The notes under the pieces: model-generated | Databases searched by the model: none | What the model was told of the DNA's origin: nothing | What the model saw: the letters and a program-made list of their open reading frames with translations, nothing else | From: Escherichia coli | GTDB lineage: Bacteria; Pseudomonadota; Gammaproteobacteria; Enterobacterales; Enterobacteriaceae | Assembly (NCBI RefSeq): GCF_003334335.1 | Contig: NZ_QOWQ01000012.1 | DNA: 64,000 nucleotides | Strand: one strand, 5' to 3' | Program-made: the position numbers and the translations under genes | Shown here: positions 8,037 to 53,034 of the stretch, piece after piece | Layout: each line of letters begins with the position of its first letter | Position numbering within the stretch: position 1 is the first letter of the stretch

Positions 8037-11583
<3,547 letters not shown>

Positions 11584-11695
11584 ATAGCGCAATATTTCAT
11601 CGTTGGTGCAAAAATGTAACGCACTGTGCACTGTCATAGTGCGTTTTCATTTTCAAACTTCTTAACTTCCTGCTCTCTTTCTCGTTTTTCATTTC

Positions 11696-11711
11696 TGGCA
11701 CACCGCTTGCA
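11696..11711 (+). promoter_or_regulatory. Candidate sigma54 (-24/-12) promoter upstream of glnK-amtB
   Basis: TGGCAC-N5-TTGCA (tggcacaccgcttgca) about 50 bp upstream of the glnK ATG; TGCAC...GTGCG dyad-like elements at ~11615-11660 are possible NtrC sites. Confidence 0.7.
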
Positions 11712-11763
11712 ATACCTTCTTCGTGTAGCAGAACCATTACCGAATTCTGACCGGAGGGGATCT

Positions 11764-12102
11764 ATGAAGCTGGTGACCGTGATAATCAAACCATTCAAGC
11801 TGGAAGACGTTCGTGAAGCGTTATCTTCCATTGGTATTCAGGGCCTGACCGTCACCGAAGTGAAAGGTTTCGGGCGTCAGAAAGGGCATGCCGAGCTGTA
11901 CCGGGGGGCGGAATACAGCGTCAATTTCCTGCCAAAAGTAAAAATTGATGTGGCGATTGCTGATGACCAACTCGATGAAGTGATCGATATCGTCAGTAAG
12001 GCGGCTTACACCGGAAAAATTGGCGACGGCAAAATCTTCGTCGCTGAATTGCAACGCGTCATTCGTATTCGTACCGGCGAAGCCGACGAAGCGGCGCTGT
12101 AA
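11764..12102 (+). CDS. glnK: Nitrogen regulatory protein PII-2
   Basis: Track ORF 11626..12102 is over-extended; ATG at 11764 gives 112 aa MKLVTVIIKPFKLEDVREALSSIGIQGLTVTEVKGFGRQKGH... with the T-loop uridylylation region (RGAEY). Confidence 0.95.
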   Translation: MKLVTVIIKPFKLEDVREALSSIGIQGLTVTEVKGFGRQKGHAELYRGAEYSVNFLPKVKIDVAIADDQLDEVIDIVSKAAYTGKIGDGKIFVAELQRVIRIRTGEADEAAL

Positions 12103-12131
12103 TCTCTGGCACACAGCAACAGGAACGAAAA

Positions 12132-13418
12132 ATGAAGATAGCGACGATAAAAACTGGGCTTGCTTCACTGGCGATGCTTCCGGGACTGGTAATGGCTGCA
12201 CCTGCGGTGGCCGATAAAGCCGACAATGCGTTTATGATGATTTGTACTGCGCTGGTGCTGTTTATGACTATTCCGGGGATTGCCCTGTTTTACGGTGGGT
12301 TGATTCGCGGCAAAAACGTGCTGTCGATGCTGACGCAGGTGACGGTGACATTTGCACTGGTCTGTATTCTCTGGGTGGTTTACGGTTACTCGCTGGCGTT
12401 TGGTGAGGGCAACAACTTCTTCGGCAACATTAACTGGTTGATGCTGAAAAACATCGAACTGACGGCGGTGATGGGCAGCATTTATCAGTATATCCACGTG
12501 GCGTTTCAGGGATCGTTTGCCTGCATTACCGTCGGCTTGATAGTTGGGGCGCTGGCGGAACGAATCCGCTTCTCAGCTGTGTTGATTTTCGTGGTGGTAT
12601 GGCTGACGCTCTCTTACATTCCGATTGCGCATATGGTGTGGGGCGGTGGTTTGCTGGCTTCTCACGGTGCGCTGGATTTCGCGGGTGGCACCGTGGTGCA
12701 CATTAACGCCGCAATCGCCGGTCTGGTGGGCGCGTATCTGATAGGAAAACGCGTGGGCTTCGGTAAAGAGGCGTTTAAACCGCACAACCTGCCGATGGTC
12801 TTCACCGGGACTGCCATTCTCTATATCGGTTGGTTTGGCTTTAACGCCGGGTCAGCGGGCACGGCGAATGAAATCGCGGCACTGGCATTTGTGAATACTG
12901 TGGTCGCAACGGCGGCGGCAATTCTTGGCTGGATCTTCGGTGAATGGGCGCTGCGTGGTAAGCCTTCACTGCTGGGGGCGTGTTCTGGCGCGATTGCCGG
13001 TCTGGTCGGCGTGACGCCAGCCTGCGGCTACATTGGGGTTGGCGGCGCGTTGATTATCGGCGTGGTAGCTGGTCTGGCGGGCTTGTGGGGCGTTACCATG
13101 CTCAAACGCTTGCTGCGGGTGGATGATCCCTGCGATGTCTTCGGTGTGCACGGCGTTTGTGGCATTGTCGGCTGTATCATGACCGGGATTTTTGCCGCCA
13201 GCTCGCTGGGCGGCGTGGGCTTCGCTGAAGGTGTGACGATGGGCCATCAGTTGCTGGTACAGCTGGAAAGCATCGCCATTACGATCGTCTGGTCCGGTGT
13301 TGTGGCATTTATCGGCTACAAATTGGCGGATCTGACGGTTGGTCTGCGTGTACCGGAAGAGCAGGAGCGAGAAGGGCTGGATGTCAACAGCCACGGCGAG
13401 AATGCCTATAACGCGTAA
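12132..13418 (+). CDS. amtB: Ammonium channel AmtB
   Basis: 428 aa; signal peptide then 11-TM Amt/MEP protein; directly downstream of glnK. Confidence 0.95.
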   Translation: MKIATIKTGLASLAMLPGLVMAAPAVADKADNAFMMICTALVLFMTIPGIALFYGGLIRGKNVLSMLTQVTVTFALVCILWVVYGYSLAFGEGNNFFGNINWLMLKNIELTAVMGSIYQYIHVAFQGSFACITVGLIVGALAERIRFSAVLIFVVVWLTLSYIPIAHMVWGGGLLASHGALDFAGGTVVHINAAIAGLVGAYLIGKRVGFGKEAFKPHNLPMVFTGTAILYIGWFGFNAGSAGTANEIAALAFVNTVVATAAAILGWIFGEWALRGKPSLLGACSGAIAGLVGVTPACGYIGVGGALIIGVVAGLAGLWGVTMLKRLLRVDDPCDVFGVHGVCGIVGCIMTGIFAASSLGGVGFAEGVTMGHQLLVQLESIAITIVWSGVVAFIGYKLADLTVGLRVPEEQEREGLDVNSHGENAYNA

Positions 13419-14327: not shown

Positions 14328-14544
14328 ATAACTCTCCAGTAACAAAGCTGCCGCAGCAAGCCAAAGTGAGTTGAGTATAACGCAAATTTGCTACTGGTCT
14401 GATGGGTGCAATGGTCTGAATTACGGGCTAATTACAGGCAGAAATGCGTGATGTGTGCCACACTTGTTGACGTTACTATTTTGTTAACCACTCTTCCGGC
14501 GAGGAAAGTTAGCCCGCTGGTGCATTGATAATAAGGAGAAATGA

Positions 14545-15537: not shown

Positions 15538-15837
15538 CTGGCACGCGATGGGTTGCAATTAGCCGGGGCAGCAGTGATAATGCGCCTGCGCGTTGGTTCT
15601 CAACGCTCTCAATGGGGGCTCTGTTGGTTCTCCCGCAACGCTACTCTGTTTACCAGGTCAGGTCCGGAAGGAAGCAGCCAAGGCAGATGACGCGTGTGCC
15701 GGGATGTAGCTGGCAGGGCCCCCACCCATTTCTGCCTCCCACCGTTTCGTCAAAAAATCCCAACATGGCTAAACTTTAACCACAACTGACGTCGCAAGAA
15801 TTGTCTGGCTGCGCAGTACGCTTCGGAGGTATGTCTG

Positions 15838-46369: not shown

Positions 46370-46453
46370 ACACCGTCGCTTAAAGTGACGGCATAATAAT
46401 AAAAAAATGAAATTCCTCTTTGACGGGCCAATAGCGATATTGGCCATTTTTTT
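46370..46453 (+). ncRNA. chiX: Hfq-dependent small RNA ChiX (MicM/SroB/RybC)
   Basis: ybaK-ybaP intergenic; acaccgtcgcttaaagtgacggcataataataaaaaaatgaaattcctctttgacgggccaatagcgatattggccattttttt matches the ChiX sequence as I recall it, ending in hairpin ggccaatagcgatattggcc plus T7. Confidence 0.75.
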
Positions 46454-47746: not shown

Positions 47747-48000
<254 letters not shown>

Positions 48001-51741: not shown

Positions 51742-53034
51742 ATGATGAACACGGAAGGTAATAACGGTAACAAACCTCTCGGTCTATGGAACGTCGTTTC
51801 CATCGGCATTGGGGCAATGGTGGGGGCGGGGATCTTCGCGCTGCTGGGGCAGGCTGCATTGCTAATGGAAGCCTCGACCTGGGTCGCCTTTGCTTTTGGC
51901 GGTATTGTGGCGATGTTTTCCGGTTATGCCTATGCGCGTCTGGGGGCGAGCTATCCCAGCAATGGCGGCATTATCGACTTCTTTCGTCGCGGATTAGGCA
52001 ACGGCGTCTTTTCGCTGGCGCTCTCGTTACTGTACCTGTTGACGCTGGCGGTGAGCATCGCCATGGTCGCCCGTGCTTTTGGCGCTTATGCCGTGCAGTT
52101 TTTGCATGAAGGCAGCCAGGAGGAGCACCTTATTTTGCTCTACGCGTTGGGGATCATTGCGGTGATGACGCTTTTCAACTCCTTAAGCAACCATGCGGTA
52201 GGGCGGCTGGAAGTGATCCTCGTCGGCATTAAAATGATGATCCTGTTATTGCTGATTATTGCCGGTGTCTGGTCGCTGCAACCGGCGCATATTTCCGTCT
52301 CTGCGCCCCCCAGCTCCGGTGCGTTCTTCTCCTGTATTGGGATAACTTTCCTTGCCTATGCGGGCTTTGGCATGATGGCGAACGCGGCGGATAAAGTGAA
52401 AGATCCGCAGGTCATTATGCCACGGGCGTTTCTGGTGGCGATTGGCGTTACCACGTTGCTTTATATCTCGCTGGCACTGGTTTTGCTTAGCGATGTATCG
52501 GCATTAGAGTTAGAAAAATATGCCGATACCGCCGTAGCGCAGGCTGCTTCTCCGCTGCTCGGGCATGTGGGTTATGTGATCGTCGTCATCGGCGCTTTAC
52601 TGGCGACGGCTTCAGCCATTAACGCGAACCTGTTCGCCGTGTTTAACATCATGGACAACATGGGCAGCGAACGCGAACTGCCGAAGCTAATGAATAAATC
52701 CCTGTGGCGGCAGAGTACCTGGGGCAACATTATTGTCGTGGTGTTGATTATGCTGATGACGGCGGCACTGAATTTAGGCTCACTCGCCAGCGTTGCCAGC
52801 GCCACCTTTTTGATTTGCTACCTGGCGGTGTTTGTGGTGGCGATCCGCCTGCGTCATGATATTCACGCCTCGTTGCCGATTCTTATCGTTGGTACGTTGG
52901 TGATGTTGTTGGTGATCGTTGGCTTTATCTACAGTCTGTGGTCCCAGGGTAGCCGTGCGTTGATATGGATTATTGGCTCACTCTTACTCAGCCTTATTGT
53001 GGCAATGGTCATGAAGCGCAATAAAACCGTATAA
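51742..53034 (+). CDS. ybaT: APC-superfamily amino-acid transporter YbaT
   Basis: 430 aa, 12 predicted TM segments; starts 3 nt after the glsA stop, so probably an operon. Confidence 0.85.
   Translation: MMNTEGNNGNKPLGLWNVVSIGIGAMVGAGIFALLGQAALLMEASTWVAFAFGGIVAMFSGYAYARLGASYPSNGGIIDFFRRGLGNGVFSLALSLLYLLTLAVSIAMVARAFGAYAVQFLHEGSQEEHLILLYALGIIAVMTLFNSLSNHAVGRLEVILVGIKMMILLLLIIAGVWSLQPAHISVSAPPSSGAFFSCIGITFLAYAGFGMMANAADKVKDPQVIMPRAFLVAIGVTTLLYISLALVLLSDVSALELEKYADTAVAQAASPLLGHVGYVIVVIGALLATASAINANLFAVFNIMDNMGSERELPKLMNKSLWRQSTWGNIIVVVLIMLMTAALNLGSLASVASATFLICYLAVFVVAIRLRHDIHASLPILIVGTLVMLLVIVGFIYSLWSQGSRALIWIIGSLLLSLIVAMVMKRNKTV

What the first reader, a model, noticed from the sequence alone, without database searches (positions are those of the whole stretch)
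11584..11763. sigma54-type promoter and candidate NtrC enhancer sites upstream of glnK-amtB
TGGCAC-N5-TTGCA (11696-11711) is a near-perfect -24/-12 element about 50 bp upstream of glnK. Further upstream, TGCAC...GTGCG dyad-like motifs (about 11615-11660) resemble NtrC binding sites. This is consistent with nitrogen-starvation control of the PII-2/ammonium channel operon.
Basis: partly seen in the sequence, partly recalled or inferred. Interest (0 to 1): 0.4.

Follow-up and report, generated by a model that had tools for sequence, protein, structure and literature searches.

The report
Known E. coli glnK nitrogen-starvation promoter

Summary
The window is E. coli chromosome. Coordinates 11584-11763 are exactly the 180-bp mdlB-glnK intergenic region, 100% identical to K-12 MG1655. 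TGGCAC-N5-TTGCA sits at 11696-11711, with GG (11697-98) and GC (11709-10) separated by 10 nt and the element ending 52 nt before the glnK ATG (11764). It is the top sigma54 PWM hit in the window. It is also the published sigma54 ChIP-seq site for glnK, and glnK falls 18.8-fold in an rpoN deletion. The dyad TGCACTGTCATAGTGCG (11627-11643) is real. By sequence statistics alone it is weak. It is, however, invariant across Enterobacterales, sits at helically phased distances from the -24/-12 element, and has a weaker site 20 bp upstream. Published NtrC ChIP-seq and gSELEX place NtrC in this spacer, and glnK mRNA needs glnG. No sigma70-like promoter or IHF-like site was found. Verdict: observation confirmed, interpretation supported, already known. 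One untested extra: the same dyad forms a conserved hairpin plus U-tract 34 nt after the mdlB stop and may also be the mdlB terminator. A CT-rich stretch just upstream of the start site can sequester the glnK Shine-Dalgarno in read-through RNA, matching a published insulator.

The parts
11581..11583 (+). mdlB stop codon (TGA); upstream boundary of the intergenic region
   Evidence: ORF list and RefSeq annotation of a 100% identical genome
11607..11623 (.). Weak NtrC-like site TGCAAAAATGTAACGCA (8/12 on the dyad pattern). Its centre is 20 bp upstream of the strong site, about -107 from the predicted start. It overlaps a canonical GGTGCA half-site at 11605-11610.
   Evidence: The block TGGTGCAAAAATGTAACGCA is conserved in Escherichia, Citrobacter and Enterobacter-like species. 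A tandem site with the same 20-bp spacing is seen in Yersinia and Rahnella. Binding is inferred, not shown.
11627..11643 (.). Strong NtrC-type dyad TGCACTGTCATAGTGCG (11/12 on the dyad pattern; 10/14 on the published consensus). Its centre is about -87 from the predicted start.
   Evidence: An 11/12 site is present upstream of the sigma54 element in 11 of the 15 Enterobacterales loci compared, and the other four carry a 10/12 match. The half-sites are nearly invariant. Published NtrC ChIP-seq and gSELEX peaks lie in this spacer.
11618..11653 (+). Candidate intrinsic terminator of mdlB. The hairpin is AACGCACTGTG/CATAGTGCGTT (11618-11645, dG -14.4 kcal/mol), followed by TTCATTTT. It overlaps the NtrC sites.
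   Evidence: The hairpin plus T-tract is found in 9 of 9 Enterobacteriaceae loci. Pairing is 92.9%, with one compensated pair (CG in 5, UA in 4). No experimental 3' end was found.
11654..11695 (+). Variable CT-rich spacer between the enhancer and the core promoter. It is about 54 bp shorter in Escherichia than in Enterobacter-like species. It includes the distal CT-rich run at 11674-11684.
   Evidence: Alignment A1. No IHF-like site was found.
11696..11711 (+). Sigma54 -24/-12 core element TGGCAC-N5-TTGCA (GG 11697-98, GC 11709-10)
   Evidence: Published sigma54 ChIP-seq site OS03 and known-promoter table.
11715..11722 (+). Proximal CT-rich anti-Shine-Dalgarno segment (CCTTCTTC). It lies just upstream of the start site and is transcribed only in read-through RNA.
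   Evidence: In read-through RNA, 11716-11722 pairs with the SD at 11753-11759. This matches the 7-nt CT-rich region centred at -4 described in bioRxiv 10.1101/086108.
11722..11763 (+). Predicted glnK 5' UTR (42 nt). The start at about 11722 is inferred from placing the C of the GC at -12. The Shine-Dalgarno GGAGGGG is at 11753-11759.
   Evidence: Inference from the motif register. It agrees with 'distance 42' in the sigma54 ChIP-seq table. The SD region is conserved.
11764..12102 (+). glnK (PII-2 nitrogen regulator), first gene of the operon
12132..13418 (+). amtB (ammonium channel), second gene, 29 nt after glnK

Best explanation
This is glnKp, the sigma54-dependent, NtrC-activated promoter of the E. 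coli glnK-amtB operon.

Mechanism. RNA polymerase carrying sigma54 sits on TGGCAC-N5-TTGCA (11696-11711) as a closed complex that cannot open by itself. This is the established behaviour of the class. Under nitrogen limitation NtrB phosphorylates NtrC. NtrC~P dimers then bind the strong dyad at 11627-11643 (about -87) and, cooperatively, the weak site 20 bp upstream (11607-11623, about -107). They oligomerise, reach the polymerase by looping the short intervening DNA, and use ATP hydrolysis to open the promoter. Transcription starts near 11722 and gives an mRNA with a 42-nt leader, then glnK and amtB.

Shown by published experiments on identical sequence: sigma54 occupancy, rpoN dependence, NtrC occupancy of the spacer, and glnG dependence.

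Inferred here: which bases form the enhancer, the exact start site, and the looping geometry.

Two further layers probably keep glnK silent when only the upstream mdlAB genes are transcribed. First, the enhancer dyad, once transcribed, forms a hairpin plus U-tract 34 nt after the mdlB stop and is a candidate terminator (inferred). Second, in any read-through RNA the CT-rich bases 11716-11722 pair with the glnK Shine-Dalgarno. This insulator is published for reporter constructs and is reproduced here by folding the native sequence.
For: - Identity: the spacer plus 20 bp on each side is 100% identical to MG1655, and the region is present once in 5424 of 5426 complete E. coli genomes.
- Sigma54 element: canonical register. 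Exact matches number 2 against 0.12 expected, and both are published ChIP-seq sites. It is the top PWM hit in the window.
- Published experiments: sigma54 ChIP-seq OS03; glnK down 18.8-fold in an rpoN deletion; NtrC ChIP-seq peak 1, with glnK mRNA not readily detected in a glnG deletion and restored by complementation; gSELEX peaks for RpoN holoenzyme and NtrC in the spacer; glnKp transcription described as depending exclusively on NtrC phosphorylation, with 400-fold higher specific activity under starvation.
- Alternatives absent: no sigma70-like promoter and no IHF-like site.
- Conservation: three islands are conserved, namely the enhancer block, the -24/-12 core and the SD region, with a variable spacer between them. 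All 15 Enterobacterales loci keep mdlB->glnK synteny, a sigma54 element 59-104 nt before the ATG, and a 10-11 of 12 NtrC dyad upstream.
- Phasing: enhancer-to-promoter distances fall in the classes 69, 79, 100, 112-113 and 122-124 bp. They are phased with a period of about 10.5-11 bp (R=0.93, about 1.4% of random sets do as well).
- Terminator.
- Insulator: the SD unpaired probability is 0.00-0.01 in read-through RNA against 0.43 in the sigma54 transcript, consistent.
Against: - By motif statistics alone the NtrC site is not distinguishable from chance: 0.92 sites expected for the dyad pattern, and only 10/14 on the strict consensus with about 35 equal or better sites in the window.
- The second site is weak (8/12).
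- The published NtrC ChIP-seq interval (U00096.2 471741-471821, equal to window 11683-11763) lies over the core promoter and leader, 40-100 bp downstream of the proposed enhancer. This is probably a matter of resolution, or of cross-linking through the loop.
- The primary footprinting and start-site papers (van Heeswijk 1996; Atkinson 2002) are not in the held library, so base-level assignment was not verified.
- For the terminator there is only one compensated pair, probably a single evolutionary event. The dyad would form a hairpin anyway because it is a protein-binding palindrome.
- No mdlB 3' end was found in the held supplements.
Confidence: 0.95

Rival explanations
1. The dyad at 11618-11645 is only the Rho-independent terminator of mdlB. 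NtrC activates from somewhere else or from solution, and the resemblance to an NtrC site is incidental.
For: - The hairpin plus U-tract scores as a terminator and sits 34 nt after the mdlB stop.
- The T-tract is invariant in 9 Enterobacteriaceae.
- The motif match is at chance level.
- The NtrC ChIP interval is offset downstream.
- High NtrC~P can activate glnAp2 without specific sites.
Against: - The TGCAC-N7-GTGCG dyad is also conserved upstream of the sigma54 element in Yersinia, Rahnella, Acerihabitans and Photorhabdus. There it has no T-tract, and in two loci (L009, L017) a separate hairpin plus T-tract candidate lies elsewhere in the spacer.
- No other NtrC-like site of 8/12 or better exists between 11560 and 11760 apart from three candidates: this dyad, its weak neighbour, and a non-conserved one over the mdlB stop.
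- The distances to the promoter are helically phased, which a terminator would not need.
Confidence: 0.04
2. The -24/-12 match is a non-productive sigma54 binding site, like the many intragenic ones. glnK-amtB would then be transcribed mainly by read-through from mdlAB or from an unrecognised sigma70 promoter.
For: Sigma54 binds many sites that drive no detectable transcription, including the other exact match in this window, inside ybaT. mdlB and glnK are co-directional and only 180 bp apart.
Against: - glnK falls 18.8-fold in an rpoN deletion, and its mRNA is not readily detected in a glnG deletion.
- No sigma70-like promoter was found.
- A terminator-like hairpin and an SD-sequestering segment both lie between mdlB and glnK.
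Confidence: 0.01

Closest known systems
E. coli K-12 glnKp (glnK-amtB promoter) itself
   Same: The sequence is identical over the whole spacer. The -24/-12 17-mer is the one published, with the same position, -68..-51 from the ATG.
   Different: Nothing differs. The window simply contains this promoter.
E. coli glnAp2 (the paradigm NtrC/sigma54 promoter)
   Same: A sigma54 -24/-12 core, activated by NtrC~P bound to upstream dyads that oligomerise and contact the polymerase by looping.
   Different: - glnAp2 has two strong sites centred at -108 and -140, plus low-affinity 'governor' sites and an overlapping sigma70 promoter, glnAp1.
- glnKp has one good site at about -87 and one weak site at about -107, no sigma70 promoter, and a better core (TTGCA against glnAp2's TCGCT).
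- The literature describes glnKp as the 'simpler' promoter. It is proposed to fire only once glnAp2 has raised NtrC above a threshold.
E. coli glnHp2 and nac promoters (other NtrC/sigma54 promoters)
   Same: They belong to the same regulon and the same promoter class, and all appear in the known-promoter table.
   Different: glnHp and astCp are reported as weak promoters that are naturally bound by IHF or ArgR. No IHF-like site was found in the glnK spacer.
CT-rich anti-Shine-Dalgarno insulators in sigma54 promoters (Levy et al., bioRxiv 10.1101/086108)
   Same: glnKp is the founding example. The 7-nt CT-rich run centred at -4 corresponds to 11715-11721 here, and folding the native sequence reproduces SD sequestration only in read-through RNA.
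   Different: The published tests used reporter constructs with a synthetic upstream promoter. The native upstream gene, mdlB, and its candidate terminator were not part of that work (no occurrence of 'mdlB' in the text).

Membership tests
Sigma54 (RpoN)-dependent -24/-12 promoter | GG and GC dinucleotides separated by exactly 10 nt (TGGCAC-N5-TTGCW register) | tested here: met
   GG is at 11697-98 and GC at 11709-10, an exact 16-nt consensus match
Sigma54 (RpoN)-dependent -24/-12 promoter | Scores like known promoters on a matrix built from independent sites, and above background | tested here: met
   18.9 bits on a PWM of 17 other known promoters, the top hit in the window. The training range is 12.1-24.6 bits and the maximum in random 64-kb sequences is 15.6 +/- 1.9.
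Sigma54 (RpoN)-dependent -24/-12 promoter | Correct strand and a short distance upstream of a gene, with no competing sigma70 promoter | tested here: met
   On the + strand, ending 52 nt before the glnK ATG. No sigma70-like sites in 11400-12200.
Sigma54 (RpoN)-dependent -24/-12 promoter | Sigma54 occupancy in vivo and rpoN-dependent expression | tested here: met
   Met by look-up of published experiments on identical sequence: ChIP-seq site OS03, gSELEX, and an 18.8-fold drop in an rpoN deletion. Identity to K-12. No new experiment was done.
Sigma54 (RpoN)-dependent -24/-12 promoter | Transcription start about 12 nt downstream of the GC | not testable with these tools
   The start at about 11722 is inferred from the register. 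It agrees with 'distance 42' and with the position of the '-4' CT-rich run. The primary mapping paper is not held.
NtrC (NRI) enhancer / upstream activating sequence | 17-bp dyad resembling TGCACCAnnnTGGTGCA | tested here: inconclusive
   11627-11643 matches 11/12 of TGCACY-N5-RGTGCA, where 0.92 such sites are expected in the window. It matches only 10/14 of the strict consensus, with about 35 equal or better sites.
NtrC (NRI) enhancer / upstream activating sequence | At least two adjacent sites on the same helical face, to nucleate the oligomer | tested here: inconclusive
   The weak site at 11607-11623 (8/12) is 20 bp centre-to-centre from the strong one. The same 20-bp tandem occurs in Yersinia and Rahnella, and the block is conserved in Enterobacteriaceae. 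Occupancy is not shown.
NtrC (NRI) enhancer / upstream activating sequence | Located roughly 80-150 bp upstream of a sigma54 promoter, with constrained helical phasing | tested here: met
   The site centres are at about -87 and -107. Spacing across 15 Enterobacterales falls in classes 69, 79, 100, 112-113 and 122-124 bp, phased at about 10.5-11 bp (R=0.93, p about 0.014).
NtrC (NRI) enhancer / upstream activating sequence | NtrC binding and NtrC-dependent expression | tested here: met
   Met by look-up of published work. NtrC ChIP-seq peak 1 is glnK-amtB, and glnK mRNA needs glnG. There is an NtrC gSELEX peak in the mdlB/glnK spacer. Resolution is that of the spacer, not of the individual site.
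Intrinsic (Rho-independent) terminator, for mdlB | Stable GC-containing hairpin immediately followed by a U-rich tract, downstream of a stop codon | tested here: met
   11618-11645, 11 pairs, dG -14.4, tail TTCATTTT, 34 nt after the mdlB stop
Intrinsic (Rho-independent) terminator, for mdlB | Structure conserved, with compensatory changes | tested here: inconclusive
   Hairpin plus T-tract in 9 of 9 Enterobacteriaceae. Pairing is 92.9%, with one compensated pair (CG:5, UA:4), and 5 of 500 shuffles reach the score. This is probably a single event, and the arms are also protein-binding half-sites.
Intrinsic (Rho-independent) terminator, for mdlB | RNA 3' ends mapped at the U-tract | not testable with these tools
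   No mdlB entry in the held supplements of two Term-seq papers; two other transcriptome papers have no supplements held as text.
Anti-Shine-Dalgarno insulator of sigma54 promoters | CT-rich segment upstream of the start site, complementary to the downstream SD, that pairs only in read-through RNA | tested here: met
   11716-11722 pairs with the SD at 11753-11759. The SD unpaired probability is 0.00-0.01 in read-through RNA against 0.43 in the sigma54 transcript. The reporter experiments are published.

The most novel reading that the evidence does not exclude
One conserved block of about 45 bp (11605-11653) may do two jobs. As DNA it is the NtrC enhancer of glnK-amtB. As RNA it is the Rho-independent terminator of the upstream mdlAB operon. 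Together with the published anti-SD segment it would give two layers of insulation, so that the ammonium channel operon responds only to NtrC. In Enterobacteriaceae the terminator appears to have been merged into the enhancer. In at least one Yersinia (L009) and one Photorhabdus (L017) locus a separate hairpin plus T-tract candidate lies elsewhere in the spacer.
Probability: 0.5. Interest if true: 0.3.

Novelty: already known. Interest (0 to 1): 0.08.

Why it matters
The finding shows that a sequence-only reader can recover a textbook regulatory region with correct coordinates and correct logic. It adds nothing new about nitrogen control. The one small point that might repay an experiment is the overlap of the NtrC enhancer with a candidate mdlB terminator. 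If real, it would be a compact example of one sequence acting as a 3'-end signal for one operon and as the activator site for the next. It would also help explain why the enhancer-flanking T-tract is invariant in Enterobacteriaceae.

Tried and rejected
- A third NtrC-like site, AGCGCCTGAATAGCGCA (11575-11591, 9/12), overlaps the mdlB stop. I rejected it: its left half is coding sequence, and its right half is not conserved in E. albertii or Citrobacter.
- IHF site between enhancer and promoter: no match of 7/9 or better to WATCAANNNNTTR in the spacer.
- Sigma70 promoter: none found.
- Strict NtrC consensus scan: uninformative, with about 35 equal or better sites in the window.
- Experimental 3' ends for mdlB: no mdlB or glnK entry in the supplements held for PMC7815308 and PMC12207403. 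No supplements are held for PMC6061677, PMC9023263 or PMC4161252.
- Primary papers on the glnK enhancer and start site are not held: Atkinson 2002 (PMC135341), the review I recalled as PMC99035 (Reitzer & Schneider 2001), and the Cell Reports version of Levy 2017. A full-text search for the dyad sequence found no paper.
- The strong site's own short palindrome: its pairs are almost invariant and so carry no covariation signal either way.

Full report
**What the window is.** The 901 bases around the finding match 5424 of 5426 complete E. coli genomes, once each and at 95-100% identity. RefSeq annotation of a 100% identical genome gives the gene order decR-mdlA-mdlB-glnK-amtB, then tesB on the opposite strand, then ybaY. 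The 180-bp spacer plus 20 bp on each side is identical, base for base, to K-12 MG1655 NC_000913.3 472398-472617. Window position x corresponds to x+460834 in NC_000913.3. In the older U00096.2 numbering, which the cited papers use, it corresponds to x+460058. That mapping is confirmed at two sites 40 kb apart. The mdlB stop is at 11581-11583 and the glnK ATG at 11764, so the finding's range 11584-11763 is exactly the mdlB-glnK spacer.

**The sigma54 element.** TGGCACACCGCTTGCA occupies 11696-11711. GG is at 11697-98 and GC at 11709-10, with ten bases between them, which is the canonical register. The element ends 52 nt before the ATG.

- Exact matches to TGGCAC-N5-TTGCW occur twice in the window against 0.12 expected, and none of 100 shuffles had two.
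- With one mismatch allowed the pattern is at chance frequency, 3 against 3.77. Only the exact match is informative.
- I built a position weight matrix from the 17 other known E. coli sigma54 promoters in Zhao et al. 2010. This site is the best of all positions on both strands at 18.9 bits. The best score in random 64-kb sequences averaged 15.6 +/- 1.9.
- No sigma70-like promoter is found in 11400-12200.

**The dyad.** TGCACTGTCATAGTGCG (11627-11643) matches 11 of 12 specified positions of TGCACY-N5-RGTGCA. It is the only such site in the window, but 0.92 are expected by chance. Against the published consensus TGCACCAnnnTGGTGCA it matches only 10 of 14, and about 35 sites in the window do as well or better. 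A weaker site, TGCAAAAATGTAACGCA (11607-11623, 8/12), lies 20 bp upstream centre to centre and overlaps a canonical GGTGCA half-site.

**Published experiments on this exact sequence.**

- Sigma54 ChIP-seq lists CTGGCACACCGCTTGCA as intergenic site OS03 for glnK, distance 42 (PMC4591121).
- Zhao et al. list glnK among 18 known sigma54 promoters at -68..-51 from the ATG, with an 18.8-fold fall in an rpoN deletion (PMC2831329).
- Brown et al. found glnK-amtB as NtrC ChIP-seq peak 1 in nitrogen-starved cells (39.7-fold). glnK mRNA was not readily detected in a glnG deletion and was restored by complementation (PMC4066584).
- gSELEX finds RpoN holoenzyme and NtrC peaks in the mdlB/glnK spacer (PMC8743547).
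- Schumacher et al. use glnKp as the 'simpler' reporter, one that depends exclusively on NtrC phosphorylation. They report 400-fold higher specific NtrC activity on starvation (PMC3870243).

I recall from memory, without being able to read them here, that van Heeswijk et al. 1996 first described this promoter. I also recall that Atkinson et al. 2002 showed the glnK enhancer to be weaker than that of glnA. Neither paper is in the held library.

**Comparative evidence for the enhancer.** A scan of species-representative genomes with GlnK returned 79 loci. In the 15 Enterobacterales loci:

- mdlB lies upstream of glnK.
- A sigma54 element lies 59-104 nt before the ATG.
- A 10-11 of 12 NtrC dyad lies further upstream.

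An alignment of nine Enterobacteriaceae spacers shows three conserved islands: TGGTGCAAAAATGTAACGCA-N3-TGCACYGTCATRGTGCGTTTT, the -24/-12 core, and the Shine-Dalgarno region. Between the first two is a spacer of variable sequence and length. The distance from dyad start to -24 start falls into classes: 69 bp (E. coli, E. albertii), 79, 100, 112-113 and 122-124 bp. These differ by near-multiples of a helical turn. The resultant length is 0.93 at a period of about 11 bp, a value reached by 1.4% of random sets. Yersinia and Rahnella also carry a second site 20 bp upstream of the strong one. This pattern is what a face-of-the-helix constraint on a short activation loop would predict. It supports 11607-11643 as the enhancer. 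In a small sample of the most divergent E. coli strains, the substitutions fall outside the dyads and the core element.

**Mechanism.** By the established model for this promoter class (glnAp2 as summarised), the sigma54 holoenzyme forms a closed complex at 11696-11711. NtrC~P dimers on the strong and weak sites (about -87 and -107 from the inferred start at 11722) oligomerise, loop to the polymerase and open the promoter by ATP hydrolysis. No IHF-like site lies in the loop. Compared with glnAp2, whose sites are centred at -108 and -140, the glnK enhancer is closer and has only one good site, while its core element is nearer to consensus. This fits the published proposal that glnK fires only once NtrC has risen above a threshold.

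**A second reading of the dyad.** The terminator scan flags 11618-11645 followed by TTCATTTT. The fold gives an 11-pair hairpin. The hairpin alone has dG -14.4 kcal/mol, and the 101-nt context has a z-score of -2.8. It begins 34 nt after the mdlB stop and is the only terminator candidate in the spacer.

- The hairpin plus T-tract is present in all nine Enterobacteriaceae.
- The four Ts after GTGCG are invariant.
- 92.9% of cells pair, with one compensated pair (C-G in five species, U-A in four). One member of that pair lies in the 3-nt gap between the two NtrC sites.
- One Yersinia locus (L009) has a separate hairpin plus T-tract right after mdlB, and one Photorhabdus locus (L017) has one after the NtrC site. 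In the non-Enterobacteriaceae loci whose spacers I read, the NtrC dyad is not followed by a T-tract.

This suggests, but does not prove, that in Enterobacteriaceae the enhancer also acts as the mdlB terminator. The evidence is thin. There is only one covariation event, the arms are protein-binding half-sites anyway, and I found no mapped 3' end.

**The published insulator.** Levy et al. showed that glnKp silences a downstream gene when transcribed from upstream. The effect was independent of rpoN and worked through CT-rich anti-Shine-Dalgarno segments, chiefly a 7-nt run centred at -4 (bioRxiv 10.1101/086108). That run is CCTTCTT at 11715-11721. I folded the native sequence. In RNA that begins upstream, 11716-11722 pairs with the SD GGAGGGG (11753-11759), and the SD unpaired probability is 0.00-0.01. 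In the transcript that begins at 11722 it is 0.43. The published mechanism therefore also holds, computationally, in the native context.

**Verdict.** The feature is the known E. coli glnKp promoter, so interest is low. The only loose thread is the possible overlap of enhancer and terminator.

Noticed in passing
window 52472-52487 (+): The only other exact TGGCAC-N5-TTGCW match in the window (TGGCACTGGTTTTGCT) lies inside the 430-aa ORF 51742-53034. It is the published intragenic sigma54 ChIP-seq site IS02 in ybaT, 679 bp upstream of cueR (PMC4591121).
   Followed up: yes
window 14439-14464 (-): The second-best sigma54 PWM hit in the window (16.5 bits, AGTGTGGCACACATCACGCATTTCTG) lies in the tesB-ybaY divergent spacer and points towards tesB. 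Its -12 element is ACGCA. The gene names tesB and ybaY do not occur in the text of the sigma54 ChIP-seq paper. The score is within the range of random maxima.
   Followed up: partly
window 12106-12114 (+): CTGGCACAC, the -24 half of the glnK promoter, recurs in the 29-nt glnK-amtB spacer but has no GC at the -12 position. It is partly conserved in close relatives only, so it is probably coincidental.
   Followed up: partly
L084 (E. coli isolate 30859_5#287, NZ_OZ040756.1), junction corresponding to window ~11749/11750: In this isolate the match to the spacer stops inside the glnK leader, between the promoter and the Shine-Dalgarno. It continues with GGTGATGCTGCCAACTTACTGATTTAGTGTATGATGG. From memory this looks like an IS1 terminal repeat, which would make it a natural insertion separating glnKp from glnK. 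The identity of the inserted element was not verified.
   Followed up: partly
window 11654-11695 versus L004-L006, L009-L012: The enhancer-to-promoter spacer is about 54 bp (about five helical turns) shorter in E. coli and E. albertii than in Enterobacter-like species, Yersinia, Rahnella and Acerihabitans. This gives Escherichia an unusually short activation loop.
   Followed up: partly
window 15622-15718, 32522-32586, 46370-46453, 40613-40690, 47751-47929: Rfam gathering-threshold hits elsewhere in the window: SRP RNA (ffs), the dnaX frameshift element, sroB sRNA, and three naRNA4 copies, two of which match on both strands. All are expected for this part of the E. coli chromosome.
   Followed up: no
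and summaries: Two of the 5424 matching records are labelled plasmids although the locus is chromosomal. One strain (DH1Ec169, H12) matches in two pieces, with about 225 extra bases near the 3' end of mdlB.
   Followed up: no
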